Counted from the first letter of the stretch, positions 12,116-52,094 are shown. The stretch is DNA of 64,000 bases from an uncultured Candidatus Saccharibacteria bacterium (GCA_964349555.1 CAYGGK010000002.1:9258-73257); one strand, 5' to 3'. The notes: generated by a model from the letters alone, not told the origin. Made by a program: numbers and translations.

Positions 12116-12125
12116 AAGACTTGGA

Positions 12126-31000: not shown

Positions 31001-32668
31001 TTAAGTAGGAAACTCTACAATAAAAGTCGAGCCCTTGCCCGCGCCCTCGGATTCGGCGCGGATGGTGCCACCATGCGCCTCCACAATCTGCTTCGCGATG
31101 TAGAGGCCGTAGCCGGTGGAGTGGACGTTCACCTTCTGCGACTCCTTACCGTGACCACCCTCGGTGAAGAGCAGTTTCTTATCTTCATCGGTTATGCCGA
31201 CGCCAGTATCTTTTACTTTGAAAACAAAAACATCCTTGTTGAGCGATTTATCCCGAGTCTTTTCGAGGGAAACCGCTACCGAGCCAGTCGGTGTGTAGTT
31301 AATAGAGTTGTCTATCAGGTTGCGTAGCACGTGGTCGCCGATTTGAGCTCTGTCTCCGGTCATCTCATACGACCCCTCATCGGTGGTAAAGGAGAGATTG
31401 AGCCCTTTCTGCTCGGCAGAGGACTTCGCCTTCTCTACCGCCTCTCCCACAAGAGCCTTGAGATCAAAGGTCGCTTTCGTGTAGGTCACGGTCCCCTTCT
31501 TCAAGTTCGCGGCCTTAAGGATATTCTCCACTGCACCAGCGCTCTGGCGTGACTCGGTGAGCGCATGCTCAACAAACGGCTTGAGCGTGTCGGGCAACAC
31601 TCCAAAGTCGCCCTCAGCGAGCGCGGCGAACGCTCCTGCATCCTTGGTCAACGACCCCTTCACCTCATGCCCGATGAAATGTATAAGCGTCTCCTGTCTC
31701 TCGTTGGTCTTCGCGAGCTCCCCCGCGAGTTCTTCAATATGCTCTCGCTGCTCAATCTCCCGTTTGACGCTTCGGACAAGGAACCAGCCGAAAATTATTG
31801 CAGAAAACAGTGTAATCCCAGTTAACACATAACTGACCGGATTTGTTACGAAGAGGAATTCCGCTGCCACTAGGATGACAAGGGAGACAACAAGTGCCTG
31901 GGTTGCAACGAGCTTTATATTAAACGCATGATATCGAGTCGTCGCATACGCAAGAATCCCAACAAAAATTGTCATGGCTGCCATGCCATATTGTGAAAGT
32001 CCGAAATCTGGTATATATCCCTGGTCAACAAGATAGCTCGCTACGACTCCTGTAACTAGAAAAGAGAAGGTAAAAAGTTCCGCGCCAGCAAAAATAACGA
32101 CTCGTGCAGATCGAATTTGGTAATCAGCGACATTCTTTTTGCGAAGCCCTTGGAACGCAGAAACCGCCATTAAGACCATGGCAAGTATGCCGAGACCGTA
32201 ATAATAGTTGGTAAACCAAGTCCCTTCGATTGCGATACAGTCTCTGATGTTATACCCGATGAGATTCGCAGTGGTAGGGGTGAAGATGAGTATGGGAAGA
32301 AATGCCACAGTCCAAACTGTAGCCATCCAAGCTGGCAATGGACGCTCAGTAATAGATACATGCACGAACCAATTTGTGAAAAAGAAAAGTAGCACCGAGA
32401 GCAGTCCGAGTTCTGCCCATGAAGACATGATGAATGTATTGTCTTCAATATAAATCCATTGCAATAAATCAAGCGTTGAATAGATTGAGAAAATAACAGC
32501 AATAACGGCAAGTAAGACACTTGCAAGATCCCTGCGTTTTAACAATACATAGCCACCGAAAAGAAGGGACGCCACGATTGCTGGTATATGGGTGTAATAG
32601 AGCAATCCTTGAGAATCCAAAAAAAACTGGTAGCAGTATTGAAGATTGTTCAAGAGATTGTATTCCAT
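31001..32668 (-). CDS. sensor histidine kinase with a roughly 7-TM N-terminal sensor domain
   Basis: HisKA H-box IHFIGHEVKGSL, HATPase_c N/G boxes (NLIDNSINYT, DTGVGI, GYGLYIAKQIV); no response regulator seen in window. Confidence 0.8.
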   Translation of the reverse strand: MEYNLLNNLQYCYQFFLDSQGLLYYTHIPAIVASLLFGGYVLLKRRDLASVLLAVIAVIFSIYSTLDLLQWIYIEDNTFIMSSWAELGLLSVLLFFFTNWFVHVSITERPLPAWMATVWTVAFLPILIFTPTTANLIGYNIRDCIAIEGTWFTNYYYGLGILAMVLMAVSAFQGLRKKNVADYQIRSARVVIFAGAELFTFSFLVTGVVASYLVDQGYIPDFGLSQYGMAAMTIFVGILAYATTRYHAFNIKLVATQALVVSLVILVAAEFLFVTNPVSYVLTGITLFSAIIFGWFLVRSVKREIEQREHIEELAGELAKTNERQETLIHFIGHEVKGSLTKDAGAFAALAEGDFGVLPDTLKPFVEHALTESRQSAGAVENILKAANLKKGTVTYTKATFDLKALVGEAVEKAKSSAEQKGLNLSFTTDEGSYEMTGDRAQIGDHVLRNLIDNSINYTPTGSVAVSLEKTRDKSLNKDVFVFKVKDTGVGITDEDKKLLFTEGGHGKESQKVNVHSTGYGLYIAKQIVEAHGGTIRAESEGAGKGSTFIVEFPT

Positions 32669-32674
32669 GTGGCT

Positions 32675-33442
32675 CTAGACGAATTGCCGCACCTTTTCTG
32701 GATAATAACACCCGAGCGGGCCATCATCAGTTTCCATAGGTTCAATGGGGACAATAAGCGGTTGTAAACCAAAAACTTCTTTCAGTTTCCGGAATGCCGG
32801 AAGCACTTTGATATTAGTAAAAAATGATTCTCGTTTTTCTGTTGTAAAATTACCGAACAAAATTGCATCTGATATGAACAACCCCAGGTATCGAAGATAC
32901 GGTAATTCGGGCGCAAAAGAATATCCTTTGCGGAACCAATCAGAGAAGTCGTATATTTCAATATTCACGCCTGGCAAACATTCCGAGAAAAGGCGGTGGT
33001 GGAAATCAATAAAATTTTCACCTTTTATGGTCTTGATTTCATTCATCGGCTTTCCTTGATCTTTTTCAAAATCGATAATACGTATCGACTCAGTAATCTT
33101 CTTGTTCCCTAAGAAGTTCTCTCGAAAGAATGTCAGCTCGCCTAAGCAGTGTTTTACATAATTTAAGTGGACAAACTTATCCTTTCTAAATTCATAGAAA
33201 ATAGGTCTGATTGGTAGATTTTTAGAAACATCCAGAAAATAGTTAAGTTCAAGGTTTGGACTTACAAGCGTAGGGGACATTACCGCTCGTGGCTCTAACA
33301 TTAATTCAGGAGGGCATGGGTGCGAAGAGAAGTAAGCATCCACCCTCTTCCTCAATTCCCTATCACCTCGGCGACGCTTAAGTTCTTCCAGCGCTTTCGT
33401 CAATGGTGTATAAAGTTCTGCGATTTCAGAATAGGAGGACAT
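32675..33442 (-). CDS. hypothetical protein (low-GC island; operonic with kinase)
   Basis: ORF only; 6-nt gaps to neighbours; no family recognised. Confidence 0.3.
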   Translation of the reverse strand: MSSYSEIAELYTPLTKALEELKRRRGDRELRKRVDAYFSSHPCPPELMLEPRAVMSPTLVSPNLELNYFLDVSKNLPIRPIFYEFRKDKFVHLNYVKHCLGELTFFRENFLGNKKITESIRIIDFEKDQGKPMNEIKTIKGENFIDFHHRLFSECLPGVNIEIYDFSDWFRKGYSFAPELPYLRYLGLFISDAILFGNFTTEKRESFFTNIKVLPAFRKLKEVFGLQPLIVPIEPMETDDGPLGCYYPEKVRQFV

Positions 33443-33448
33443 GAGACG

Positions 33449-33787
33449 TTATTGATTTGTGGTTATGGGACCATAGCATGTATTTTCTTCGCCTGATTCA
33501 CAATATTGAACTGTACAGCTTGAATCATCCTCCACACAACTCAACTCCGGACACTGGCCTGCCCACCCGTCACAGATAGGTATTGTGTTAGCTCTCTTTG
33601 TAATCTCTGCGTAATATTGTGGCGCATTTTCTCCGTCTCCAATAAAACAGGAATGCTGGGTTGGATCGCATGATACGTTTGCAAAAACGAGATAATCACG
33701 AACAATATAGAATTTATAAAATGCCGCACTCGCCGACACTAGCGACACCAGGACGATAATCCAGATGAGAATCCGAGTCCCCTTCAT
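33449..33787 (-). CDS. small secreted Cys-rich protein (signal peptide plus about 10 Cys)
   Basis: MKGTRILIWIIVLVSLVSASA signal; C-rich mature region; start at internal Met of ORF 33449..33898. Confidence 0.4.
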   Translation of the reverse strand: MKGTRILIWIIVLVSLVSASAAFYKFYIVRDYLVFANVSCDPTQHSCFIGDGENAPQYYAEITKRANTIPICDGWAGQCPELSCVEDDSSCTVQYCESGEENTCYGPITTNQ

Positions 33788-33848
33788 GGTTATTATTTTA
33801 ACACAAAAAAAGAAAATCGGCGGCATGCGTTGTGCGCATTGCCGCCGA

Positions 33849-34382
33849 TCAAGTGAGACCGAACCAGTTGAAGATGAAGCGGAGGCCCTCGACGGCAAGG
33901 GTTACAACACCTGTCCACCAGAGGTTGGCCACCAGAACACTGCCCCAGAAGATTCTCCAGTCCCGAGACGAGAGGCCGTTGTACGCTTCCGCGCCATGCC
34001 GCATGTACACGGTCGTCACGAACGGATCCGTGAAGCAGGACAAGGCGAGGAATGCGAGCCAGTCACCCTTGCGGGTGGCCCATTGGATAAGGCGCGCCAC
34101 GCGCCCTTGCTTCTCTTCCCCATCTCGCACTCCCTTGAGGAGTTCGAGACCGAGCCAGTCTTGCTTAGACCAGTCGTAGAAGAGGAGGTAGAGCCAGCAG
34201 ATGAGAGCTGAGAATACGGTCATGACGAGACCGCCGGAAATTGCCCCCAACCACGCTATGACCGCAGGGTAGAAGGTGTAGTCAAACACAAACTCCTCCG
34301 CCTGCTTGAAGCCATGGCCGACAGCCATGATACCGATTCGCTCTTTCCAGCGAATCGGTTGATTCGCTGATTTGAGCGCCAT
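33849..34382 (-). CDS. polytopic membrane protein (about 4 TM), function unknown
   Basis: ORF with hydrophobic segments; first gene of the putative four-gene minus-strand operon. Confidence 0.35.
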   Translation of the reverse strand: MALKSANQPIRWKERIGIMAVGHGFKQAEEFVFDYTFYPAVIAWLGAISGGLVMTVFSALICWLYLLFYDWSKQDWLGLELLKGVRDGEEKQGRVARLIQWATRKGDWLAFLALSCFTDPFVTTVYMRHGAEAYNGLSSRDWRIFWGSVLVANLWWTGVVTLAVEGLRFIFNWFGLT

Positions 34383-34600
34383 TTGGCATCTCCCTTGTTT
34401 GTTACGTTAATGTTCAGGCATTCGACTCCCGACGCACTGTCGTGCTGTCGAGTACAAATACCGCTACTTATATTAAAGCACGACTATCTAAAATGTACAA
34501 GTGTTTGACAATTTATAGATTTAGTAATACGATTTACTCGTGAGTCGTAATTGTGCTACTCGCCTTGGCCTACGCGCCATGAATGTAGAAAGAGAAAACA

Positions 34601-34987
34601 ATGCTTGCTCAAGTTCTTATAAACGAAGACGGGATAAACGCTCGCGCGATCTCCCAGCAGGTTTCTCTCCCTGAGTTCGACACCCACGTTCTTAAGCGGG
34701 TGTTAAGGGAAGAATCAAACTTGCATGACCCTCGCCCCCTAACCGACGCACAGATCGACGCCGACGTTGATGCCTACCTGGAATTCCTTCGCGAACGAAA
34801 GCTGAACCACGGTGTCAACATCGTGCCCGTGGTCCAGGTCGATCGGGTCTGGCACATTCACATCATTCAGACCGAGCAGTACGCCCAGGTCTGCAACGAC
34901 TACTTCGGCTACTTCCTTCATCATGCATCTTTCATCTGCGGCATGGGCGACGGTAAGAAGATGGTCCCCTGGCATACTCGTCAGTAG
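34601..34987 (+). CDS. hypothetical protein (possible DUF1399/GRDP-like WHxH motif)
   Basis: VDRVWHIHIIQTEQYAQVCNDYFG resembles the conserved core of DUF1399; weak. Confidence 0.3.
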   Translation: MLAQVLINEDGINARAISQQVSLPEFDTHVLKRVLREESNLHDPRPLTDAQIDADVDAYLEFLRERKLNHGVNIVPVVQVDRVWHIHIIQTEQYAQVCNDYFGYFLHHASFICGMGDGKKMVPWHTRQ

Positions 34988-35118
34988 TACCACCATTTGA
35001 GCCGAACCCAGTCCTCAAGCCTGCTTTCCTCTATCTCTAAGGGAAAGCAGGCTTTTGAATTGTCGTGCGAGACAAGGCTGAGTTGCGGAACAGGCAAGAT
35101 GCTCGTACAATTTTCTCA

Positions 35119-36762
35119 ATGGAAAAAATGCCTTCTAAGGAGAACGGCGGAAAAGAATTGCTACTGCCAGTTAATAGTCACACAGAGCTTTTCAGGGAAT
35201 TTCCCCCAGTGCCACAAAACCTTACTACTCTAGACACTCCTTTTTTGAGTCCTTACAAAAGTGCAAAAGAAAAGTTGGATTACGAGCGCCGTTTGCCCAT
35301 AGAAATCTTGCCATTTGTGCGCACTTATTTTGCGCAGCATAAGGATGAGATGTTGAAATTGTGTGAGAACGAACCTATTTCAGAGTATCTTTCGCATATC
35401 AAGGAAGCATGGCAAAAACACATAGGGGCTAACGAGGCGATTGACTGTTTTTTGAACTACGAGACTAAGAATGTTTTTGGAGACTGGTCTCAGAAGGAAT
35501 GGGGAATGGCAAAGAGGCTTATAGTTGCGGCTTTCGAGACTGATCATCAGAAAACAATGTATTCGGGGGGAATTAAACATAAATTAGAGATAGAACGCAT
35601 AAGGCTTGGAGAAAAATACCGGACCAGCGGAATTCAGGATTTTGACACACTACTTATTTCACCCGCTGGCCTCACCTTTTACGAAGGCCGTGAACACAAT
35701 AATAAGAAGTTACATCTATCCATACTCAAGGGAGAACCTGATTTTGAATTGAAGAACGAAATAGTAAATCGCTATAATGGGGGTGACCAAAAATTGTTCG
35801 AGGAACGATTCAAGACTTTCAAGTTCTCATCGGATATTGAGAAGTTGGAGTCAGAGATACAGGTAATTGAAGAAAGGGTTCGTTCTCGGTCAGTGAAGAA
35901 GAATTATGCGTTAGTGGAGAGGCAGGAGCTAAAAGATTTTGATTCTCTGCTTTTCTTCGACAACACAACGGAGTACGAATATACATACTCACTTAAAGGA
36001 CTGCAAGATTTGTTTCTTCGCGAAGAACTTCTCAAGCGATTAAAGAGTTTTGGGCAGTTCCCTGCAGATACGTCGGTATATTCCTTATCAAAAGAAGATT
36101 TTGTATCAGCCATAGACGATAGATTATCTAGCATAGCTAGACACTCTTCGATTCGTCTGCGTCCATACCTTCAAACAATGGATACGTGCGGAACAGCGTG
36201 TATTATGTCCATCCTTAATCGAAAAGGCATACCGCTTACCAGAGATGAGGAAATGGCAATTTGGGAACGCGTAGGAAAGCCTTATAATTTTCCTGGTGGA
36301 CTTGCGACCGTTCTCCTCGAGCATGGTTTCCATGTTAAATACATCCAAAATCACCTGACACTTCTTCAAGCTGACAGCCTGGAATTTGAGTCAAAAGATC
36401 CAAACCTCTTAAGGGCCGCTCGGGAATATGTGGTTCTTCATGAAAAGGCAATCAAAAAGGGTTTGAATTATTCTATAGAAAGTTGGGACTTTGAAAAAGT
36501 GAAGGTCGAGATAAGTAGGGGCAACCCCTGCATTCTGTATATATATGTTTCTGAGACATATACCCATTGTGTCATTGCTCGAGGTATCAAGAACAACAGG
36601 CTAGAGATAATCGACCCTCTTGGAAATATTAAGTATATGAATGAGGAGCAATTGAACAAAAGAATCGATACCCCGATGGGACGAAGAATGTTAGTTGTCG
36701 AGAAACTACCAGATGACTTTTTTGAGAAATTGGATAAAGACCTTCAGGTTATTGGTTATTAA
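35119..36762 (+). CDS. large hypothetical protein with C-terminal papain-like C39_2-type cysteine peptidase domain
   Basis: DTCGTACIMSILNRKGIP (catalytic Cys) ... YTHCVIARG (His) in the C-terminal 180 aa; N-terminal about 370 aa unknown; low GC. Confidence 0.45.
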   Translation: MEKMPSKENGGKELLLPVNSHTELFREFPPVPQNLTTLDTPFLSPYKSAKEKLDYERRLPIEILPFVRTYFAQHKDEMLKLCENEPISEYLSHIKEAWQKHIGANEAIDCFLNYETKNVFGDWSQKEWGMAKRLIVAAFETDHQKTMYSGGIKHKLEIERIRLGEKYRTSGIQDFDTLLISPAGLTFYEGREHNNKKLHLSILKGEPDFELKNEIVNRYNGGDQKLFEERFKTFKFSSDIEKLESEIQVIEERVRSRSVKKNYALVERQELKDFDSLLFFDNTTEYEYTYSLKGLQDLFLREELLKRLKSFGQFPADTSVYSLSKEDFVSAIDDRLSSIARHSSIRLRPYLQTMDTCGTACIMSILNRKGIPLTRDEEMAIWERVGKPYNFPGGLATVLLEHGFHVKYIQNHLTLLQADSLEFESKDPNLLRAAREYVVLHEKAIKKGLNYSIESWDFEKVKVEISRGNPCILYIYVSETYTHCVIARGIKNNRLEIIDPLGNIKYMNEEQLNKRIDTPMGRRMLVVEKLPDDFFEKLDKDLQVIGY

Positions 36763-36775
36763 ATAATCGTACACA

Positions 36776-37462
36776 TCATTCAATCTCCTTGAGCGCTTCC
36801 ATTGTTACGTGGACTAACTCGATCACCTCCTCATCCTTTTTCGGAGAATGCCCCATCCCTTCTATTAAATGAAGCTTAGAATTCGAAAGCATGGTGTTGA
36901 GCGTTTCTGAATTTTCAATTGATACAGCATCATCACTCGTCCCATGCACTATATGAACGGGAATATCGATTTCTCGCAAGAAATTCTTTCCAAGGGTAAT
37001 TGATAGAAGTGGGTCAATATCAGAAAATGGCTTGGACTTCATCTCATTAAAGTTTCCTTCATCAGTTTCCGAAAATCCAATCGCAGGAGCCCACAATATC
37101 AATATATTAATACGTTTATCGTTTGCGGCAAGTAGCATCCCGCCGCCAAAACTTTTACCAATGCCGTATATGTCAGTATACCCCATCTCCAAAAGGGAGG
37201 ACACTGATTCATGTATTCTTTCAACTATTTTAGCGATACACATTTCTCCTAGATCAGTACTAGCGTTCCACACCTTAAGGCACTCAGAGTGAATACCTCC
37301 TTTATTTAACTGATCTTTTAGCATTTCATAGAGTGGTAACTGCTTTTCTGCATTTATGCCTGGAACGAAAAGAACTGCGCGGGTTTTTTTCTGCTTTGGT
37401 TTGGAGCTGGAAATAAATTTTGTATCTTCTAGTTTCATATTTCTAATTTTATCACTTTTCAA
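36776..37462 (-). CDS. alpha/beta hydrolase (dienelactone hydrolase-like)
   Basis: GxSxG nucleophile elbow GIGKSFGG, C-terminal His GMGHSP. Confidence 0.6.
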   Translation of the reverse strand: MKSDKIRNMKLEDTKFISSSKPKQKKTRAVLFVPGINAEKQLPLYEMLKDQLNKGGIHSECLKVWNASTDLGEMCIAKIVERIHESVSSLLEMGYTDIYGIGKSFGGGMLLAANDKRINILILWAPAIGFSETDEGNFNEMKSKPFSDIDPLLSITLGKNFLREIDIPVHIVHGTSDDAVSIENSETLNTMLSNSKLHLIEGMGHSPKKDEEVIELVHVTMEALKEIE

Positions 37463-37500
37463 CGAGCTATCGAGACGCTGTGTTTTCTTTGTTCGGGATG

Positions 37501-38218
37501 AATGGGGTCAGCCACCATTCTTTGGTCTACCAACTCTCCGTAGAGTTTGTTCCAACCCATGCTTCTTCACGATAGCATCCTGCCAGCGATCGGAACCGAA
37601 CGGGATACTCTTCGCTATCGAACGTTCGAGAGCCTTTTCTTCTGTTTGTACCTGCGGCTGATTCAGCCATGAGATGTAGTCATGTGGTACTGGAACTGGC
37701 CAAGAAGTGAGGAGTTTCTTTTGCTGTGGTGTTCCATGTTCCCGGCGCCACACACTCGACCAGCGCCATTGCTCTGCCTTTTTAACTAGGTTCGCTTTCT
37801 TCGCGTTTCGCTCGACATAGCGGACAAGGGTAAGGAAGTGTTTGTCTGTCTGACAGAGAAAGGATTTGTATCTGCCTTGGTAGAGGTGGCCCTGGCCAAC
37901 AGTATCTTTTGCAACGTGCCAACGTCTCGTATGTGTATTGGTGATCCAACCCATGAATAGGGAGAGGTCACCATCATTCCTGGGATAGAGGACTAGATGC
38001 CAGTGATTAGGCATGAGGCAGTACGCAAGGATGCGCATAGCAAATTTCTTTTCCGCTTCTTCAAGAATTTGCTCGAAGAGCGGGTAGTCTTTATCGGTAT
38101 CAAATATTTGGACGCGGGCATTTGCGCGGTTCAGGACGTGGTATACATGATCACCAACATCAGTGCGCTCAATGCGGGGCATGCATACAGAATATCATAA
38201 ATGGTGGCTGACCCCATT
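37501..38218. mobile_element. 718-bp IS200-like/REP-associated tyrosine transposase (RAYT) unit bounded by perfect 19-bp inverted REP-like repeats AATGGGGTCAGCCACCATT
   Basis: Left IR 37501..37519, right IR 38200..38218 (exact reverse complement); each IR is itself hairpin-forming (AATGG..CCATT). Confidence 0.75.
37508..38182 (-). CDS. REP-associated tyrosine transposase (Y1 transposase, PF01797-like)
   Basis: YHVLNRANARVQIF.., HxH motif CLMPNHWHLVL, catalytic-Tyr region LYQGRYKSF / YVERNAKKANLV...WRWSS. Confidence 0.75.
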   Translation of the reverse strand: MPRIERTDVGDHVYHVLNRANARVQIFDTDKDYPLFEQILEEAEKKFAMRILAYCLMPNHWHLVLYPRNDGDLSLFMGWITNTHTRRWHVAKDTVGQGHLYQGRYKSFLCQTDKHFLTLVRYVERNAKKANLVKKAEQWRWSSVWRREHGTPQQKKLLTSWPVPVPHDYISWLNQPQVQTEEKALERSIAKSIPFGSDRWQDAIVKKHGLEQTLRRVGRPKNGG

Positions 38219-41656: not shown

Positions 41657-42214
41657 ATGAAAAAAATAGAGAAAGTCGTAGTTGTGACCAAAAGTCCCAA
41701 CGAGGTTCGCGCCGTTGAGAAGGCGCTCCAGAAGCTCTGCGTTGATGAGGTGATGGTGGTTGGATGCGAGACCGAATCAGAGTCAGGCGTTCCTGTACAA
41801 CTACAGGACGGGCTGATGATGATCCAAAGTGCAGCTAGTCGCGCCAAACATGCGCGCCAACTTCACCCTGGTGCCGACATATACGTCGGTATCGAAAAAA
41901 GATTGGAGAAAGTAGTCGATTGTCAGTACGACTTCATATGTGTCGTCGCTCTCGACGGCGATGGCGACACACGACACGAGTCACTCGGCACGTACCTTTA
42001 TATCCCTAATTTTTCTATCCCTTGGCGGGTAGTGAAAAGAATTATGGCTCAAAGTAACGTTCTTGGTAAAATCATCCAGGAACTCGCCGATGACGAAAGA
42101 AATCCAATAAAACGACTCTCGGAAGAAGCCGCCTCTCGTTTAGAGAGTCTTGTGCTAATTGTCGAGCGTGCCCTCGAGCCAATTGTTTTCCCCGAGCGCT
42201 ACGCGGAACAGTAA
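41657..42214 (+). CDS. YjjX/DUF84-like non-canonical purine NTP phosphatase (ITPase/XTPase)
   Basis: VVVVTKSPNEVRAVEKAL.., ESGVPVQ, ADIYVGIE resemble the E. coli YjjX blocks; start at internal Met of ORF 41585..42214. Confidence 0.45.
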   Translation: MKKIEKVVVVTKSPNEVRAVEKALQKLCVDEVMVVGCETESESGVPVQLQDGLMMIQSAASRAKHARQLHPGADIYVGIEKRLEKVVDCQYDFICVVALDGDGDTRHESLGTYLYIPNFSIPWRVVKRIMAQSNVLGKIIQELADDERNPIKRLSEEAASRLESLVLIVERALEPIVFPERYAEQ

Positions 42215-42257
42215 AACATCAGCCCACTGGAGCGGAAAATCTGCTTCGGTGGGTTTT

Positions 42258-42295
42258 CTGTTAACTTTTGGTGCGCGGTGAGGGACTTGAACCCC
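42258..42295 (-). other. tRNA 3' fragment (T-arm + acceptor 3' strand + CCA: GGGGGTTCAAGTCCCTCACCGCGCACCA); no matching 5' half
   Basis: Revcomp reads as a canonical T-loop/acceptor/CCA, but no D-arm or anticodon arm can be folded upstream; overlaps the 3' end of ORF 42261..42950. Confidence 0.45.
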
Positions 42296-42950
42296 CGAGT
42301 TCAGCTAATTTTTCAATCCACCCTTTTATAGTGAGAAAGATGATGGTGTCACACACGTATATTTGAAACGTACCGTACGGCAACGAATCTTTTTTTCCTT
42401 TACTCGCAGTGCTTGGCTTCGAATAGGTCTTATAAAACTGCCGGCGAGGTATCCCTGAAATTTGAGACCAATACTGTTCTGCTTTTTCTGCGTTCAAATG
42501 CGAAAAAGTATGCACATGTCCGCGGAATTTATTCGACGGGACATTAAACACTTCACGAAAGAACAACATCATGAATCGGATGACTTTGGGATCACTGTTT
42601 GAAATTCTAGCCATTCCGGTTTTTGTTTTTCCTCCCTCGCCCCAATACAAAGCAGATCCTACTAGGAGCAAATCCTGTTTAGATAGTGTCGGGATTTTTT
42701 CTTTTGCTGCGTCGATTACTATCCGATGCCGCTGAAGCGTTCCTTTTATCCTGCTTTTTCTCCTTCTCTCTATAGACTCAACACTGCGACCGTGTGTGCT
42801 TAGTTTTTTCCTCTGCTGTTCCGATAACTCTATATCACGAACCCATAAACTAACACTTGCTTTAGAAACACCTAACTCACGTACTATCTCATTGAGCGAC
42901 ATACCTTTCCCCCGAAGGAGCCTGGCTCGTTCTTGTTCTTCTTTTTTCAT
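42261..42950 (-). CDS. HTH-domain protein of unknown function (low GC; weak LAGLIDADG-like motif)
   Basis: N-terminal HTH GMSLNEIVRELGVSKASVSLWVRD; LLLVGSALYWGEGGK faintly resembles a LAGLIDADG block; sits between a tRNA 3' fragment and a tRNA cluster. Confidence 0.35.
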   Translation of the reverse strand: MKKEEQERARLLRGKGMSLNEIVRELGVSKASVSLWVRDIELSEQQRKKLSTHGRSVESIERRRKSRIKGTLQRHRIVIDAAKEKIPTLSKQDLLLVGSALYWGEGGKTKTGMARISNSDPKVIRFMMLFFREVFNVPSNKFRGHVHTFSHLNAEKAEQYWSQISGIPRRQFYKTYSKPSTASKGKKDSLPYGTFQIYVCDTIIFLTIKGWIEKLAELGGSSPSPRTKS

Positions 42951-43045
42951 ATCTAGTATATCATAGGTATACTCTGTATATGTATATTATATCAGTTCGC
43001 TTATTTAGCAATCCTCGATATTGGTGGTATTGTGGAAAAGTTCTT

Positions 43046-43118
43046 GGGCGATTAGCTCAGTTGGTAGAGCAATGTCCTTACACGACAAAGGTCGCAGGTT
43101 CGAGCCCTGCATCGCCCA
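43046..43118 (+). tRNA. tRNA-Val (anticodon TAC)
   Basis: Manual fold: GGGCGAT acceptor, D-loop AGTTGGTA, anticodon loop CTTACAC, T-loop TTCGAGC. Confidence 0.8.
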
Positions 43119-43181
43119 CACAAGTAGCAGAACGGCTCATATACGCCGTATATGAGCCGTTCTGCTGATATAATTCCCGAG

Positions 43182-43265
43182 TGCCGCGGGGGAGACTCGA
43201 ACTCCCAATCCCTTGCGGGAACTAGCTCCTGAAGCTAGCGTGTCTACCAATTTCACCACCACGGC
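43182..43265 (-). tRNA. tRNA-Leu (anticodon CAG), type II
   Basis: Manual fold: acceptor GCCGTGG/CCGCGGC, anticodon loop TTCAGGA, long variable arm, T-loop TTCGAGT. Confidence 0.75.
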
Positions 43266-43300
43266 AATCTTACACGTAAACTCATCCTAACAGAAACTTG

Positions 43301-43395
43301 TGCCCTCGGACGGAATCGAACCTAGCACGGTGAGACCCCACAAGGGTTCCTTGGCGACTTTCAATACATCAGACTAAGGCCTCTCGGTCCGGGCT
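43301..43395 (-). other. tRNA-like sequence (GGTTCGATTCC T-loop motif) that does not fold into a canonical cloverleaf; possible degenerate tRNA/att remnant
   Basis: Revcomp ends ..GCTAGGTTCGATTCCGTCCGAGGGCA, but acceptor/T-stem pairing fails on inspection. Confidence 0.25.
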
Positions 43396-43473
43396 CAACT
43401 CTCAAAGTGGAACAAATTTGACCTTCTTAATAGCCACTATACCGAGCGGCCATTTTAGGGCACACTGTAAGAA

Positions 43474-46101
43474 ATGAGGCTTTCAATCATCATTCCGTGC
43501 TACAACGAGAGTCGGACGTTGGAGGAACTATTAGATAAAGTTATTGTGGCACCACTTCCGCAAGGGTGGAACAAAGAGATTATCGTCGTTGATGACGGAT
43601 CTAATCAAGAAACAAAAAATACACTTTCACGTTTGCAGCCTGGACTCTTCTCTTTAGTTCACAGAAAACACAACGGAGGGAAGGGAGCCGCTCTTAAGGA
43701 TGGTTTTGCTAAAGCGTCTGGAGACTACCTTTTAATACAAGACGCAGATCTTGAGTACGATCCGGCGGATTATCTTGCACTCCTTTCGCCCATTGACCAA
43801 AAGAAGGCCCAAATAGTATTTGGATCTCGACGCACGAAGAGAGAAAACGCATCCGGGAATATTCTCTATGCTTGGGGAGGAGTACTCGTCACCAAGATAT
43901 TTAATGTACTATTCAAAACCAACCTCACTGACATAGCGACGTGCTACAAGGTTTTCCCCAAGTATCTCGTACCAGAGCTTTTGAAATGCAAAAATCAAAG
44001 TTTCATTTTTGATATGGTCGATTTGACCCATGTTCTTGCGACCCATGAAAAGATCATAGAAGTACCGATTTCATATAGAGCACGAACGAAACAAAACGGA
44101 AAAAAACTCAAATGGACAGATGGAATACGGGCGGTGACAAGAATGTTCGCCCTCAAATTTTCCTCTGGTGAGAATCTTTTGAAACTTGCCGTTTTTGGAC
44201 TTCTTCTGCTTTTTTATGGCTCACTGTTGATTCATCAGATTGATTTCTCCGCGGGAGATGATCTTCCGCGCCACATTAAAAACGGCGAGATGATACTCAA
44301 TGGCAATTTTGAAATCCTGTACCAAAATACGTACTCATATACAGAATCCAATGAGACCTTTGTTAATCATCATTGGTTGTCTGGCGTTGTTTTTTACCTG
44401 CTTAATGTCGCTTTTGGTTGGAATGGATTCATTATCTTCAAGGCGATTCTTTTGCTCACTTCCTTTTCCCTGCTGTTCTTCACCGCATTGCGGAAATCCT
44501 CCTTTTGGCTTGCCGCGATACTTTCTGTCCCGGCAATTCTTATACTCGCGGAACGTACAACCCTGCGCCCCGAGATATTCAGCTATTTCTTTATCGCAAC
44601 TTTTCTTTACATCTTAACAGTTGGCGAAAAAAATCAGAATACAAGAAAAATATACCTACTTATTCCGCTCCAACTACTCTGGGTTAATCTCCACATCTTT
44701 TTTCCCATCGGCATCGTACTCGTCGGCGCTTTTTTCTTAGAAAAAGTGGTTGAATACAGAAAATCCTTGACGGGAAACTCTTATATCCGCAGGTTAATTA
44801 CTGTGCTGTGTGCCGTCGTTTTTGTCTCATTCCTCAACCCTAACGGCATTGCCGGAGTACTTGAACCAGTCCGCATTTCCAATGACATTGGCATTGAGGT
44901 AAGCGAGACACAGTCAATACTCACGGTCATGAGGACAGAGCCGCTTAAAGATGTCATACCCATTTTCACCTTCGTTGCGATGCTGCCGTTTCTAGTCCTT
45001 AGTTTCGTTCTTGCTGGAAAAAAGAGGCCGATACCATTTTATGCCGTCGCAGCATTATTCACAGTAGCCGCAGGACTGTTAATGAGACGAAATATACCCC
45101 TTACCGGCTTGATTTTTCTTCCTGCGGTAGCGGCAAACATGCACGCATACTTCGCAGCTCAACGTATACAAAAGTCGAAGCTAAGCCCATACGTTGCTGC
45201 GTGGATAATTGGCACTTTGCTGGTGATTCTAATCTCGCTAGGTTTGAACGGGGGAATTACCGTATATAACAGACCAGGACTGGGGCTGACACCCCGCTCT
45301 CAAGACGCAGCTCTCTTTCTGAAAGAACATTCACTGCGAGGGCCTATATTCAACAACTTTGATAGTGGTAGTTATCTGATTTACCACTTGTTTCCAAAAG
45401 AAAAGGTATTCGTAGACAACAGACCTGAAGCTTATTCCAGATCCTTTTTTGAGCATGAGTATCTTGAGCCCATGCAAAATGAAACCGCGTGGGAACAACT
45501 ACTCACAAAATATAATTTTAACATGGTGTTCCTTTCCACGTATGACCAAAGTTGGTATTTCCACCAGTTTGCTTTTAACCGAATCCGCGATCCGGCATGG
45601 GCACTCGTATATGCCGATACGTATCATCTCATTTTTTTGAGGCGCGTCTCCAACAATGAAGAGATCATTCGGCGTTTTGAGATTTCACCCGTAAATGCAG
45701 AAGAAAAATTACGCCCCTTAGCGAACTCGTTGTATTTTGAAGACAAAGTTGCAGCAGCGGATATTTTCAACCTTTTGGGAATGGAAAGTCTCGCAGCCGA
45801 AACCCACTTACGTATCGTGACGCAATGGCCTGATAAGGCAAAAATATGGATGGTAATGGGCATCTGGGAGCTTATCGGCACTAGAGCAGACATGGATCCG
45901 AGAAGGGGCGTCGAGTATCTCAAAAAAGCTATTGATTTTGGGCAAAAGACTGCGGGGGCATACTATTTCCTCAGCTTCGGTTATTACAAGATCGGCGACT
46001 TTGAGAAAGCGAAAGTAGCAATCAAGCACTCTTTGGATATTAACCCCTCCTATCAAGCCTCCCTTGACCTCCAAAAGCTACTGCTCAATAAATCAAACTA
46101 A
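43474..46101 (+). CDS. fusion protein: N-terminal family-2 glycosyltransferase (DPM1-like), central about 11-TM domain, C-terminal TPR repeats
   Basis: SIIIPCYNE.., VVDDGSNQET, LIQDADLEYDP (DxD), then long polytopic region, then TPR-like C-terminus (..AYYFLSFGYYKIGDFEKAKVAIKHSLDINP). Confidence 0.7.
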   Translation: MRLSIIIPCYNESRTLEELLDKVIVAPLPQGWNKEIIVVDDGSNQETKNTLSRLQPGLFSLVHRKHNGGKGAALKDGFAKASGDYLLIQDADLEYDPADYLALLSPIDQKKAQIVFGSRRTKRENASGNILYAWGGVLVTKIFNVLFKTNLTDIATCYKVFPKYLVPELLKCKNQSFIFDMVDLTHVLATHEKIIEVPISYRARTKQNGKKLKWTDGIRAVTRMFALKFSSGENLLKLAVFGLLLLFYGSLLIHQIDFSAGDDLPRHIKNGEMILNGNFEILYQNTYSYTESNETFVNHHWLSGVVFYLLNVAFGWNGFIIFKAILLLTSFSLLFFTALRKSSFWLAAILSVPAILILAERTTLRPEIFSYFFIATFLYILTVGEKNQNTRKIYLLIPLQLLWVNLHIFFPIGIVLVGAFFLEKVVEYRKSLTGNSYIRRLITVLCAVVFVSFLNPNGIAGVLEPVRISNDIGIEVSETQSILTVMRTEPLKDVIPIFTFVAMLPFLVLSFVLAGKKRPIPFYAVAALFTVAAGLLMRRNIPLTGLIFLPAVAANMHAYFAAQRIQKSKLSPYVAAWIIGTLLVILISLGLNGGITVYNRPGLGLTPRSQDAALFLKEHSLRGPIFNNFDSGSYLIYHLFPKEKVFVDNRPEAYSRSFFEHEYLEPMQNETAWEQLLTKYNFNMVFLSTYDQSWYFHQFAFNRIRDPAWALVYADTYHLIFLRRVSNNEEIIRRFEISPVNAEEKLRPLANSLYFEDKVAAADIFNLLGMESLAAETHLRIVTQWPDKAKIWMVMGIWELIGTRADMDPRRGVEYLKKAIDFGQKTAGAYYFLSFGYYKIGDFEKAKVAIKHSLDINPSYQASLDLQKLLLNKSN

Positions 46102-49986: not shown

Positions 49987-50422
49987 GGGCAATACGTGAA
50001 AGGTAACTGGTAAGAATAAGCGCGGCGGCAGAGGCATCGACGGCCTCGCGCCTTTTGGGCGCGCGTGTCTTTCTCTCTTTTCCACCGAAGGCGGACCCGC
50101 CCTCGGCGGTTGCAGGCGCGCGACGCGCCTGCGCACTCGTGAGCCCTTCCCACTCATAGAAGACTGGGACGCCGCACCGAGCCGCGACTTCTTCTCCGAG
50201 CTGTTTTGCCCCTTTCGCGGCAGGGTTTTCCTTTCCCGCATAATCAAGCGAGTTGCCGACCACAAGGGCACGCACGTCCTCTTTCGCTATAATTGCGCAA
50301 ATGTGTTCAACTGCCTTGGGAGTGTTCGGGACGACCAAGTGAGGAAACCCCATCGTGCCCGTCTCATCAGAGAGCGCGAGACCAATCTTCTTGGTGCCGT
50401 AGTCAATGCCAAGATGTCGCAT
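49979..50422 (-). CDS. ruvX: YqgF/RuvX-like Holliday-junction resolvase / pre-16S rRNA nuclease
   Basis: MRHLGIDYGTKKIGLALSDETG.. RNase H-like N-terminus; carries the family-1 insert PATAEGGSAFGGKE. Confidence 0.8.
   Translation of the reverse strand: MRHLGIDYGTKKIGLALSDETGTMGFPHLVVPNTPKAVEHICAIIAKEDVRALVVGNSLDYAGKENPAAKGAKQLGEEVAARCGVPVFYEWEGLTSAQARRAPATAEGGSAFGGKERKTRAPKRREAVDASAAALILTSYLSRIAHE
50082..50109. repeat. family-1 palindromic element (degenerate copy CCACCGAAGGCGG-AC-CCGCCCTCGGCGG) in-frame in ruvX
   Basis: Two arm mismatches relative to a perfect palindrome. Confidence 0.7.
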
Positions 50423-50514
50423 ATAAAGAGAAGTGTATGATATAACCTGGTTCTGTGCACGACAGGACAGGGATGGGTGAAAATTTTAGATCTTTGAAAA
50501 ATTCTACACGGAGC

Positions 50515-50601
50515 GGAGGGGTCGCATAGTTGGTCTAGTGCGGTGGACTTGAAATCCACTGTGCCGTAAGGCACCGCGAGTTCGAATCTCGCCCCCTCCG
50601 C
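50515..50601 (+). tRNA. tRNA-Ser (anticodon TGA), type II
   Basis: Manual fold: acceptor GGAGGGG/CCCCTCC, anticodon loop CTTGAAA, long variable arm TGTGCCGTAAGGCAC, T-loop TTCGAAT. Confidence 0.8.
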
Positions 50602-50605
50602 TCCG

Positions 50606-50712
50606 TCGCGGAATCTAGAGCTTTGCCCGCCAGAGGCGGGTCCGCCTCTGGCGGAAAAACTAGCGGGCCAAAAGCCCTTGTGGGTTCGAGTCCCACCCCT
50701 TCCGCAGATGAT
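50606..50712 (+). other. tRNA-like element (5' GCGGAAT..., 3' GTGGGTTCGAGTCCCAC-CCCTTCCGCA) disrupted by or containing a family-1 palindrome at 50627..50654
   Basis: Good T-arm and 3' acceptor-like strand, but no canonical D/anticodon arms; the palindrome plus flanking CTAG..CTAG occupies the central region. Confidence 0.4.
50627..50654. repeat. family-1 palindromic element, perfect copy CCGCCAGAGGCGG-GT-CCGCCTCTGGCGG inside the tRNA-like locus
   Basis: 13-bp perfect arms; central dinucleotide GT (reverse orientation relative to plus-strand copies at 6410/10818/50082). Confidence 0.85.
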
Positions 50713-50728
50713 GCGCTACTATGGAGCA

Positions 50729-51466
50729 ATGACAAAAGTCTTAGGAATTCTTCCCGCGCGCCTCGGCTCCACCCGCCTCCCACGCAAGATGCTCGCCGAC
50801 ATTGACGGGAAGCCTCTTATTTACCACAGCTGGAGCCAAGCAAAGAAAGCAAAACTCCTTGATGACGTTATTATCGCTACCGACGCGGAGGAAATTTCCG
50901 ATGCTGTAACTCCGTACGGAGCAGAAACCATGATGACGCCAGTGGAGATAGCTTCTGGAAGCGACCGTGTCGCATACGCCGCCGCGCACTACACGAAGTT
51001 TCAGCCGGATATTGTCGTAAACATCCAAGGGGATGAGCCTCTTATGCCGCCCGAGGCCATTGATGCCTGCGTGCAGGCGCTGATAGACGACTAGAGCGCA
51101 GTCGTAGCGACGCCTTCAACAAGGTTCATCCGCGAGGGCGATATACATTCTCCTAACTTCGTAAAAGTAGTAACGGATACGAACGGAAACGCGCTTTACT
51201 TTTCGCGTTCGCTCATTCCCTTCCCTCGCGATGAATACAAGACATTTTGGAAACACCTCGGCTTGTATGCGTTCAGAAGAGATTTTCTTGCTACCTATGT
51301 CACACTACCTCAGACGCCCCTAGAGCTTGCAGAGAAATTGGAACAGCTTCGCATCCTCGAGAATGGGTATAAAATTAAAGTCGTGCAAGGAGTATTCAAT
51401 ACGCTTGAGGTGAACACAGCAGAAGAGCTTGAAAGCGTACGGCAGATTGTCGCTACAAGAAAATAG
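50729..51466 (+). pseudogene. kdsB: 3-deoxy-manno-octulosonate cytidylyltransferase (CMP-KDO synthetase) interrupted by a single in-frame TAG at 51092..51094
   Basis: ORFs 50678..51094 and 51263..51466 are in the same frame. The 56 codons between them translate without stops to KdsB-like sequence (..NFVKVVTDTNGNALYFSRSLIPFPRDEY..FWKHLGLYAFRRDFL). Confidence 0.7.
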
Positions 51467-51527
51467 ACCTCTCTCCACTAGGTGCATAAACAACGAGTCG
51501 CACGTGGCGCTCTGATATAATTCTCAT

Positions 51528-52001
51528 ATGCCCGACAGCGCTATTTTAGAATGGGAGGGGAAAGAATACGACTATAATCCGAAGGATGCCGACTGGTACT
51601 GGGTGCTCAGCATTATCGCTATTGCGAGTATTATTGCGTCCATACTCTTCGGCAATTACCTGCTGACCGCTCTTATCGTCATAGCGGCGGTGGCCCTCGC
51701 CCTTCATGCCTCCAAAGAGCCGCCGCTTCACCGCTTCCGCCTCGTCGAGAGAGGCATCGTCATCGGCGACGACTTGCACCCCTTTGAGCACATGCTCTCT
51801 TTTTCCGTTCTTGAAGACGTCAAGGGCGAACTCCCTCCCATGCTCTCTATCAAGACGGAGAGCTGGCTCTCTCCGCACCTAATCATCCCGCTTGAGGGCG
51901 TTGATGCCGATGTGGTCTATACCTATTTCCTTGAACGGGTCGATGAGGACGAGCACAAGCATACTTTCTCAGACGTAGTGGCGGCTTGGCTTGGATTCTG
52001 A
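51528..52001 (+). CDS. hypothetical membrane protein (2 TM)
   Basis: ORF with hydrophobic segment WYWVLSIIAIASIIASILFGNYLLTALIVIAAVALAL. Confidence 0.3.
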   Translation: MPDSAILEWEGKEYDYNPKDADWYWVLSIIAIASIIASILFGNYLLTALIVIAAVALALHASKEPPLHRFRLVERGIVIGDDLHPFEHMLSFSVLEDVKGELPPMLSIKTESWLSPHLIIPLEGVDADVVYTYFLERVDEDEHKHTFSDVVAAWLGF

Positions 52002-52019
52002 TATACATTCACTACGGCC

Positions 52020-52094
52020 GCTCCCGTCGTTCAATGGATAGGACATCTCCTTGCGGAGGAGACGATGTCAGTTCGATTCTGGCCGGGAGCACCA
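52020..52094 (+). tRNA. tRNA-Arg (anticodon GCG), CCA encoded
   Basis: Manual fold: acceptor GCTCCCG/CGGGAGC, anticodon stem TCTCC/GGAGA, loop TTGCGGA, T-loop TTCGATT. Confidence 0.7.

What the first reader, a model, noticed from the sequence alone, without database searches (positions are those of the whole stretch)
51092..51094. kdsB (CMP-KDO synthetase) split by a single in-frame TAG with conserved sequence on both sides
ORFs 50678..51094 and 51263..51466 are in the same frame. The 168 nt between them translate without further stops into sequence that aligns with the KdsB core (..NFVKVVTDTNGNALYFSRSLIPFPRDEY..). A lone amber codon in an otherwise intact gene is either a very recent pseudogenisation, a sequencing error, or programmed readthrough/suppression. 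A KDO-pathway gene is also unexpected if this is a monoderm CPR-type organism.
Basis: seen in the sequence. Interest (0 to 1): 0.5.

Follow-up and report, generated by a model that had tools for sequence, protein, structure and literature searches.

The report
Recently broken sugar-activating gene (kdsB)
A gene for activating the sugar Kdo in a tiny uncultured bacterium (Kaiserbacteria-like, CPR) is cut in half by one genuine stop codon, most likely an ordinary and very recent knockout mutation rather than a special way of reading the genetic code.

Summary
TAG at 51092-51094 lies in frame inside a full-length kdsB-like gene (ATG 50729 to natural TAG 51464-66). With the stop masked, the 245-aa product matches KdsB models end to end.

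The stop is not a one-off assembly error. The same TAG, in 100% identical DNA, occurs in six contigs from two ENA assemblies and four separately assembled runs.

It is not recoding. TAG ends RecA, ArgRS, L11, a SIMPL protein and a tRNA-binding protein at their natural C-termini in this window. None of the 8 tRNAs has a CUA anticodon. All 39 homologues carry a sense codon at that variable column, mostly Lys. No RNA structure follows the stop, and its context matches natural stops.

The half after the stop shows no decay: 47 of 47 conserved positions are kept. No start codon would let it be made separately.

This copy is an orphan, inserted beside tRNA-Ser where Kaiserbacteria relatives have no kdsB. 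The five closest intact homologues examined sit in Wzx/Wzy surface-polysaccharide clusters. KdsB is therefore not unexpected in CPR bacteria.

Best reading: a real, very recent nonsense allele, that is a pseudogene (about 0.8). Low-level readthrough (about 0.08) and a read-level artefact (about 0.04) cannot be excluded. This is ordinary.

The parts
50729..51466 (+). kdsB-like CMP-Kdo synthetase gene, 245 codons including the internal TAG. Full-length but interrupted, so a probable pseudogene. Alternative upstream starts are ATG 50708 and 50711.
   Evidence: NCBIfam NF003952 at 292 bits, end to end. Pfam CTP_transf_3. 51-66% identity to 39 uninterrupted homologues. Best solved relative is the capsule-type CMP-Kdo synthetase 1GQ9.
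51092..51094 (+). In-frame TAG (codon 122) at a variable surface column. Homologues have K(12), R, P, E, D, S, I, A, T or Q there.
   Evidence: The same codon is present in L001-L009 from 6 contigs.
50729..51091 (+). N-terminal 121 codons: the CTP-binding half, with the PARLGSTRLPRK loop and the NIQGDEP motif. This is the only product expected if TAG terminates.
   Evidence: Domain roles are taken from PMC3149649.
51095..51463 (+). C-terminal 123 codons: the Kdo-binding and dimerisation domain plus the C-terminal return to the N-domain. They are stop-free and undegraded, but have no in-frame ATG/GTG/TTG before 51263.
   Evidence: 47 of 47 columns that are at least 80% conserved are retained, and identity to homologues is 60.2% after the stop against 60.1% before it. 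The ORF list gives the start-codon gap.
50717..50722 (+). TACTAT, a -10-like hexamer 6 nt upstream of ATG 50729. It may be the promoter of a leaderless kdsB mRNA. This is an inference.
   Evidence: Read directly from the sequence. The 157-aa gene has the same geometry (TGATATAAT, then 6 nt, then ATG 51528), as do its orthologues in L179 and L180. The consensus promoter scan did not flag it.
50515..50601 (+). Intact tRNA-Ser(TGA), of the type found in relative L179.
   Evidence: ARAGORN. Rfam tRNA at 58.8 bits. 89.7% identical to the L179 tRNA-Ser.
50627..50654 (.). 28-bp perfect palindrome, CCGCCAGAGGCGG-GT-CCGCCTCTGGCGG. It is one of four copies of this element in the window.
50679..50705 (+). 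27-nt remnant (T-arm plus 3' acceptor strand) of a second tRNA-Ser. It is 100% identical to the 3' end of the tRNA-Ser(TGA) of relatives L180 and L181. It has no anticodon arm and no 5' acceptor strand, so it is not a tRNA gene.
   Evidence: blastn, alignment and a partial tRNA-Sec model hit of 17.8 bits that covers only the variable arm, T-arm and acceptor. ARAGORN and the Rfam tRNA model do not detect it.
51528..52001 (+). Conserved 157-aa membrane protein of Kaiserbacteria/Paceibacteria. It anchors the synteny comparison.
   Evidence: 707 homologues, with the listed top hits 72-82% identical and several named Candidatus Kaiserbacteria.
52020..52094 (+). tRNA-Arg(GCG). It lies just downstream of the 157-aa gene here, as in the relatives.

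Best explanation
The TAG is a real single-base nonsense mutation, most simply AAG (Lys), GAG (Glu) or CAG (Gln) changed to TAG. It sits in a kdsB-like CMP-Kdo synthetase gene of a Kaiserbacteria-like CPR bacterium.

Translation stops after residue 121. That leaves only the CTP-binding half. The Kdo-binding and dimerisation domain and the C-terminal catalytic segment are not made, so the enzyme is inactive and the gene is a pseudogene.

The mutation is very recent on the scale of sequence evolution, because nothing downstream has decayed.

The copy is dispensable in this genome. It is an orphan inserted at a rearrangement-prone site next to tRNA-Ser, away from the surface-polysaccharide gene clusters where its intact relatives work.

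Shown: the stop itself, its presence in several assemblies, the use of TAG as a normal terminator, the orphan context and the absence of decay. Inferred: loss of function, dispensability and the ancestral codon.
For: - The stop interrupts an otherwise end-to-end KdsB match.
- The TAG lies in 100% identical DNA in six contigs: ENA ERZ27247830 and ERZ27247817, and Logan ERR3094293-96. No intact allele appears among the 5.8 billion clustered proteins; the best hit is 66% identical.
- All 39 aligned homologues are uninterrupted. The column is variable, with K most common, so one base change explains the stop.
- TAG terminates five conserved proteins exactly at the ends of their domain models: RecA (RecA_C 56/57), ArgRS (DALR 117/117), L11 (69/69), SIMPL (205/205) and the tRNA_bind protein (95/96). 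About 10 credible genes in the window end in TAG (14 of 66 ORFs in a crude longest-ORF set).
- There is no tRNA-CUA among the 8 tRNAs.
- There is no in-frame start codon for 56 codons after the stop.
- In the A. aeolicus enzyme, residues 100-210 (the C-terminal domain) carry Kdo binding and dimer formation, and D219 is one of the two Asp shown at the Mg sites (PMC3149649). All of this lies after the stop.
- Relatives L179 and L180 have RuvX - DUF5652 - tRNA-Ser - 157-aa gene with no kdsB (tblastn negative). L181 has different genes in the same slot. The window carries a 27-nt remnant of a second tRNA-Ser at the junction.
- The five intact close homologues examined sit in clusters with GT4, GT8, Wzx and Wzy genes, two of them also next to a SIS+CBS gene. 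No kdsA, kdsD, waaA, Wzx or Wzy gene was found in the 64-kb window.
Against: - The half after the stop is perfectly preserved: 47 of 47 conserved columns, with identity equal to the upstream half. That is also what continued selection on a read-through product would give.
- GC and GC3 of the gene are typical of the genome. A plausible -10 element and the start codon are intact. So nothing but the TAG marks the gene as dead.
- All contigs come from one set of runs and are clonal, so persistence of the allele over time or across populations is unknown.
- Only 64 kb of the genome could be checked for suppressor tRNAs and for other interrupted genes.
Confidence: 0.8

Rival explanations
1. The gene is still functional because the TAG is partly read through. 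The mechanism would be near-cognate decoding or a suppressor tRNA encoded elsewhere in the genome, giving a low level of full-length KdsB.
For: The downstream half is fully intact. The stop is at a column that tolerates at least ten different residues in homologues, so any inserted amino acid should give an active enzyme. Promoter-like and start signals are intact.
Against: - The window has no CUA tRNA.
- The neighbouring tRNA-like element lacks an anticodon arm.
- TAG is the natural terminator of RecA, ArgRS, L11 and others, so efficient suppression would extend essential proteins.
- No stimulatory structure is present (z = +0.15).
- TAG-AGC is the same context as the natural stop of the 255-aa gene at 32675, and TAG-A follows five of ten natural stops.
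- No homologue shares the stop.
- According to the Codetta screen, all known stop-codon reassignments in bacteria affect UGA, not UAG (PMC8629427).
Confidence: 0.08
2. The TAG is an artefact or a consensus of a mixed population. It would come from a systematic sequencing error, an amplification error shared by the libraries, or a majority allele that hides an intact minority allele.
For: All contigs derive from one series of runs (ERR3094293-96) and the associated ENA assemblies, which may share DNA extracts. Reads could not be inspected.
Against: The base is identical in four separately assembled runs and with two different assemblers, in perfectly identical flanks. No homopolymer or simple repeat lies at the site. 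No intact near-identical protein exists in the 15-billion-protein collection.
Confidence: 0.04
3. The truncated 121-aa N-terminal product, alone or with a separately translated C-terminal piece, is a functional split or shortened protein.
For: Gene callers predict a 127-138-aa product with a CTP_transf_3 hit. A 67-aa ORF begins at TTG 51263.
Against: No homologue is split or this short among the 120 best hits; the shortest is 199 aa. No in-frame start lies between 51095 and 51262, so 56 codons of the conserved Kdo-binding domain could not be made. In solved CMP-Kdo synthetases the C-terminal domain provides Kdo binding and the dimer interface (PMC3149649).
Confidence: 0.03
4. The organism has reassigned TAG to an amino acid genome-wide, or uses pyrrolysine.
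For: None beyond the single codon.
Against: TAG sits exactly at the natural C-termini of five conserved proteins in the same 64 kb. Stop use in a crude set of 66 longest ORFs is TAA 32, TGA 20, TAG 14, of which about 10 TAG-ending ORFs are credible genes. No other conserved gene in the window is interrupted by TAG.
Confidence: 0.01

Closest known systems
CMP-Kdo synthetase: KdsB (LPS type) and KpsU (capsule type, PDB 1GQ9) of E. coli
   Same: Same fold family by sequence: 167 bits to 1GQ9 over residues 3-242, and above the NCBIfam and TIGRFAM kdsB cutoffs. It shares the PAR..STR.P.K CTP loop, the QGDEP motif and the LEQLR motif.
   Different: It is interrupted by a stop at codon 122. It belongs to a Parcubacterial clade in which the C-terminal VDT motif reads EVNT. 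It comes from a CPR bacterium, and the window holds no LPS or Kdo-pathway genes.
Intact kdsB homologues in Parcubacteria/Patescibacteria surface-polysaccharide clusters (for example P0001, P0002, P0003, P0007, P0018)
   Same: 64-66% (P0018: 62%) identical, with the same length and motifs.
   Different: Those genes are uninterrupted and embedded among GT4 and GT8 glycosyltransferases, methyltransferases, a Wzx flippase, a Wzy_C-TPR protein and, in two loci, a KdsD-like SIS+CBS gene. The window copy stands alone between tRNA genes and a conserved 157-aa gene.
Ordinary bacterial pseudogenes created by a single nonsense mutation
   Same: There is one premature stop relative to all homologues, no compensating start, and the position is not conserved.
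   Different: Nothing substantive. It is notable only for being so young that no second lesion or relaxed substitution is visible, and for occurring in a small CPR genome.
Amber suppression and UAG recoding systems: suppressor tRNA-CUA, pyrrolysine, and TAG-recoded phages
   Same: Only the presence of an in-frame UAG in a conserved gene.
   Different: There is no tRNA-CUA, no second in-frame TAG and no conservation of the stop, and TAG is used as a terminator throughout the window.

Membership tests
KdsB / CMP-Kdo synthetase (Pfam CTP_transf_3, NCBIfam NF003952, TIGR00466) | Whole-length match to the family profile above the curated cutoff | tested here: met
   NF003952 at 292.2 bits (cutoff 193), covering residues 3-244 and profile positions 2-248 of 250. 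TIGR00466 at 201.8 bits (cutoff 155.2).
KdsB / CMP-Kdo synthetase (Pfam CTP_transf_3, NCBIfam NF003952, TIGR00466) | CTP-binding loop (P-A-R-x-x-S-x-R-x-P-x-K) and the first catalytic Asp in QGDEP | tested here: met
   PARLGSTRLPRK and NIQGDEP are present. P9, R11, S14, R16, K20, Q100, G101, D102, E103 and P104 are invariant across 40 sequences.
KdsB / CMP-Kdo synthetase (Pfam CTP_transf_3, NCBIfam NF003952, TIGR00466) | Second metal-binding Asp near the C-terminus (D219 in A. aeolicus, in the VDT motif) | tested here: inconclusive
   The window and its Parcubacterial relatives read E-V-N-T where 1GQ9 and the more distant homologues read V-D-T. That this is the D219 position named in PMC3149649 is my inference from the alignment, not a direct test.
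KdsB / CMP-Kdo synthetase (Pfam CTP_transf_3, NCBIfam NF003952, TIGR00466) | Uninterrupted reading frame giving both domains in one chain | tested here: not met
   TAG at codon 122.
KdsB / CMP-Kdo synthetase (Pfam CTP_transf_3, NCBIfam NF003952, TIGR00466) | CTP:Kdo cytidylyltransferase activity, with Kdo as substrate rather than another ulosonic acid | not testable with these tools
   Only context is available: a KdsD-like SIS+CBS gene lies next to the orthologue in L011 and L012.
Programmed UAG readthrough or recoding (suppressor tRNA, pyrrolysine, code change) | A tRNA able to read UAG (CUA anticodon) | tested here: not met
   The window has 8 tRNAs and none is CUA. The tRNA-like element at 50606-50707 has no anticodon arm. 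The rest of the genome could not be tested.
Programmed UAG readthrough or recoding (suppressor tRNA, pyrrolysine, code change) | TAG avoided as a terminator, or further in-frame TAGs in conserved genes | tested here: not met
   TAG ends RecA, ArgRS, L11, SIMPL and the tRNA_bind protein at the ends of their profiles. No other interrupted conserved gene was found in the window.
Programmed UAG readthrough or recoding (suppressor tRNA, pyrrolysine, code change) | The in-frame stop is conserved in orthologues | tested here: not met
   None of 39 homologues has it; the column holds K, R, P, E, D, S, I, A, T or Q.
Programmed UAG readthrough or recoding (suppressor tRNA, pyrrolysine, code change) | A special stop context or a downstream stimulatory RNA structure | tested here: not met
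   The fold of 51062-51180 has z = +0.15 against shuffles. The TAG-AGC context equals that of natural stops.
Nonsense-mutation pseudogene | Premature stop relative to full-length homologues, real in the DNA | tested here: met
   The same TAG is in six contigs from four runs and two assemblers. Read-level confirmation could not be done.
Nonsense-mutation pseudogene | No way to express the downstream part separately | tested here: met
   There is no ATG, GTG or TTG in frame from 51095 to 51262.
Nonsense-mutation pseudogene | Relaxed selection or further lesions downstream of the stop | tested here: not met
   47 of 47 conserved columns are kept, and the ratio of downstream to upstream identity is 1.00, within the range of intact homologues (0.79-1.04). 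This limits the age of the lesion. By my rough estimate it corresponds to less than about 3% neutral divergence.

The most novel reading that the evidence does not exclude
The amber codon is decoded at a useful rate in this CPR bacterium. That could happen through a suppressor or unusual tRNA encoded outside the window, or through weak RF1 termination. The orphan kdsB would then be a translationally throttled but living gene, which would explain why its second half is perfectly preserved.
Probability: 0.06. Interest if true: 0.6.

Novelty: already known. Interest (0 to 1): 0.12.

Why it matters
There is little general significance. The case shows a very young gene loss in a reduced CPR genome. 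It also illustrates that Kdo-activating enzymes in Parcubacteria belong to surface-polysaccharide clusters rather than to LPS synthesis.

In practice the locus should be annotated as a pseudogene. It should not be taken as evidence for an alternative genetic code. The Codetta authors warn about exactly this confusion: in-frame stops in pseudogenes can mimic reassignment (PMC8629427).

It would matter only if the TAG were shown to be read through.

Tried and rejected
- **Adjacent suppressor tRNA.** The tRNA-like cloverleaf at 50606-50707 (fold z = -5.2) contains two CTAG motifs. I rejected it as a suppressor tRNA. ARAGORN and the Rfam tRNA model miss it. The tRNA-Sec model aligns only the variable arm, T-arm and acceptor (17.8 bits). 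Alignment to relatives shows a 27-nt 3' remnant of a second tRNA-Ser plus a palindrome.
- **A second TAG-interrupted gene at 32675.** A 255-aa ORF, a TAG and a 555-aa histidine kinase share a frame. I rejected this from the sequence: the kinase starts with its own Met and transmembrane segments two codons after the stop. I did not test it with a homologue search.
- **Strain variants in L007 and L008**, suggested by different gene calls. Rejected, because the DNA is 100% identical to the window.
- **Scans of genome contigs and metagenome contigs** for closer relatives or an intact allele.
- **The 157-aa neighbour as a remnant of the polysaccharide cluster.** No similarity to the small ORF after Wzy in L177.
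- **Foreign composition of kdsB.** GC 0.505 and GC3 0.545 against window means of 0.520 ± 0.048 and 0.575 ± 0.079. It is not foreign.
- **Run accessions in the literature.** No paper was found.
- **Viral contig scan for the tRNA remnant.** No match.

Full report
**1. Observation**

Window 50400-51700 was read and translated. In one frame the sequence runs ..MTKVLGILPARLGSTRLPRK...CVQALIDD, then TAG (51092-51094), then SAVVATPSTRF...NFVKVVTDTNGNALYFSRSLIPFPRDEY...VRQIVATRK, and ends at TAG (51464-66).

With the stop masked, the 245-aa product matches NCBIfam NF003952 (KdsB) at 292 bits over profile positions 2-248 of 250. It passes the TIGR00466 kdsB cutoff and Pfam CTP_transf_3. The best solved relative is the capsule-type CMP-Kdo synthetase 1GQ9.

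**2. Is the stop real?**

I used two neighbouring proteins as exact-match probes. They recovered six public contigs covering the site:
- ENA assemblies ERZ27247830 and ERZ27247817.
- Logan assemblies of runs ERR3094293, -94, -95 and -96.

All six are 100% identical to the window and all carry TAG. A seventh contig does not reach the site. Their gene callers predict a truncated product of 127-138 aa.

No intact near-identical protein is among the 5.8 billion clustered proteins; the best hit is 66% identical. A one-off assembly error is therefore excluded. Read-level allele frequencies could not be checked.

**3. Is TAG a sense codon here?**

No.
- In a crude set of 66 longest non-overlapping ORFs, stop use is TAA 32, TGA 20 and TAG 14. 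About 10 of the TAG-ending ORFs are credible genes.
- TAG ends five conserved proteins exactly where their domain models end: RecA, ArgRS, ribosomal protein L11, a SIMPL protein and a tRNA-binding-domain protein.
- The window's eight tRNAs include no CUA anticodon.
- No other conserved gene in the 64 kb is interrupted. The one suspicious same-frame pair, at 32675, looks like two separate genes.
- The RNA around and after the stop folds no better than shuffled sequence (z = +0.15).
- The context TAG-AGC equals that of natural terminators in the window.
- The Codetta screen of more than 250,000 genomes states that all known bacterial stop-codon reassignments affect UGA. It also warns that in-frame stops in pseudogenes can mimic reassignment (PMC8629427).

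**4. What homologues show**

Thirty-nine homologues (51-66% identity, Parcubacteria/Patescibacteria first) are all uninterrupted and 241-279 aa long. At the stop column they have K (12), R (6), P (5), E (4), D, S, I, A, T or Q. The position is variable, and AAG, GAG or CAG to TAG is a single-base change.

Downstream of the stop the window sequence keeps all 47 columns that are at least 80% conserved. Its identity to the homologues is 60.2% after the stop and 60.1% before it. That ratio of 1.00 lies inside the range of intact homologues, 0.79-1.04. There is thus no detectable decay.

As a rough inference, zero hits in 47 constrained codons limits the neutral divergence since the mutation to below about 3%.

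**5. Consequence of the stop**

There is no in-frame ATG, GTG or TTG between 51095 and 51262, so the downstream part cannot be made on its own.

In solved CMP-Kdo synthetases the N-terminal domain binds CTP. The C-terminal domain (residues 100-210 in the A. aeolicus enzyme) provides Kdo binding and the dimer interface. D219, shown with D95 at the Mg sites, lies near the C-terminus (PMC3149649).

A 121-residue product would lack all of the C-terminal functions. Loss of activity is inferred, not measured.

**6. Genomic context**

The 157-aa gene just downstream (51528-52001) is a conserved protein of Kaiserbacteria/Paceibacteria, with the listed top hits 72-82% identical. That places the organism.

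- In relatives L179 and L180 the order is PilM - (tRNA_bind) - RuvX - DUF5652 - tRNA-Ser(TGA) - 157-aa gene - tRNA-Arg(GCG). There is no kdsB, and tblastn is negative.
- In L181 the same slot holds about 4.3 kb of unrelated genes.
- In the window the slot holds four things in order: an intact tRNA-Ser (50515-50601, L179 type), a 28-bp palindrome, a 27-nt piece identical to the 3' end of the L180/L181-type tRNA-Ser (50679-50705), and then kdsB.

This copy is therefore a lineage-specific orphan at a rearrangement-prone tRNA site. Its composition is ordinary, so it is not a fresh foreign import.

By contrast, the five intact close homologues whose loci I examined lie in surface-polysaccharide clusters. 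These hold GT4 and GT8 glycosyltransferases, methyltransferases, a Wzx flippase and a Wzy_C-TPR protein, and in two loci a KdsD-like SIS+CBS gene next to kdsB. No such genes, and no kdsA or waaA, are in the window.

Two conclusions follow. KdsB homologues are normal in this part of the CPR, where they probably feed a Kdo-type sugar into a surface glycan rather than LPS. And the window's copy has lost that context.

**7. Verdict**

The simplest account of all results is a real, very recent nonsense mutation in a dispensable orphan kdsB, that is a young pseudogene (confidence about 0.8).

| Alternative | Confidence | Main point |
|---|---|---|
| Low-level readthrough keeps the gene alive | about 0.08 | The intact second half is equally compatible with it, but nothing else supports it |
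| Read-level artefact or mixed population | about 0.04 | Same base in four runs and two assemblers |
| Functional truncated or split protein | about 0.03 | No start codon for the conserved C-terminal domain |
| Genome-wide TAG recoding | about 0.01 | TAG is a normal terminator throughout the window |

The finding is real but ordinary.

**8. Things seen in passing**

- The 28-bp palindrome next to kdsB has three more copies, all in frame inside housekeeping genes. In GlyRS it accounts for a 12-residue insertion (LPAGGGSASGGK) relative to a solved GlyRS.
- IleRS carries an internal histidine-phosphatase domain.
- The Parcubacterial KdsB clade reads EVNT where other KdsB read VDT.
- Several genes here and in relatives have a -10 box 6-8 nt before the ATG, which suggests leaderless mRNAs.

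Noticed in passing
window 1422-1449, 6410-6437, 10818-10845, 50627-50654: A 28-bp near-perfect palindrome, CCGCC(A/G)GAGGCGG-NN-CCGCCTC(T/C)GGCGG, occurs four times: 13 arm matches against 1.85 expected. Three copies lie in frame inside housekeeping genes. These are the FtsK linker (SARGGPSSGEN), the SSB tail (PPAEGGSASGGRD) and the GlyRS anticodon-binding domain. In GlyRS it corresponds exactly to a 12-aa insertion, LPAGGGSASGGK, absent from solved GlyRS 8u2q. It resembles in-frame palindromic elements such as the Rickettsia RPEs, but is much shorter.
   Followed up: partly
window 50606-50707: A cloverleaf-like fold (z = -5.2) lies directly upstream of kdsB. It is a composite of the palindrome and a 27-nt 3' remnant of a second tRNA-Ser allele, which is 100% identical to the tRNA-Ser of relatives L180 and L181. 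Three Logan contigs start at 50669-50677 and one ENA contig starts at 50516, the first bases of the intact tRNA-Ser, so assemblies tend to break across this tRNA region. The site downstream of tRNA-Ser(TGA) is a variable slot among Kaiserbacteria.
   Followed up: yes
window 14593-17949 (-): The IleRS is 1118 aa long and carries a complete histidine-phosphatase domain (His_Phos_1, residues 488-665, E = 1.6e-32) inserted between two stretches of the class-I catalytic domain.
   Followed up: no
window 51404-51415 (EVNT), alignment A1: In the window and its roughly 35 closest Parcubacterial KdsB homologues, the C-terminal motif that reads V-D-T in E. coli KpsU and in more distant homologues is E-V-N-T, with E227, V228, N229 and T230 nearly invariant. 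That position probably corresponds to the second metal-binding Asp. The clade may therefore use a different metal ligand or a different sugar substrate.
   Followed up: partly
window 51513-51530 and 50717-50731; L179 around 4980-5003; L180 around 4985-5003: A -10-like hexamer (TGATATAAT, TACTAT, TATCAT or TATACT) ends 6-8 nt before the ATG of the 157-aa gene, of kdsB and of the orthologues. No Shine-Dalgarno sequence lies at a usual distance. This suggests leaderless transcripts in this lineage.
   Followed up: no
window 32000-38200 and 42000-46100: Two stretches have lower GC (0.43-0.47) than the roughly 0.52 of the rest. They hold an IS200-like Y1 transposase (37508-38182), proteins with no family match, a C39-like peptidase and an 875-aa GT2-TPR protein. 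These may be acquired regions.
   Followed up: no
L011 versus L012 (JGI 3300072490 and 3300072492): The same Parcubacterial polysaccharide cluster appears in both. L012 has intact genes. In L011 many genes are fragmented: the GT4 genes, Asn synthase and a 487-aa protein are each split into pieces. This looks like assembly or indel error in one dataset. It is a reminder that split genes in such data are often artefacts.
   Followed up: no
window 10721-12349 (-) and 12126-14009 (-): The longest-ORF versions of GlyRS and the upstream DUF11 protein overlap by 224 nt. GlyRS homology starts only at about residue 75-82. The true GlyRS start is therefore probably internal, and the overlap is an artefact of the ORF rule.
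   Followed up: partly
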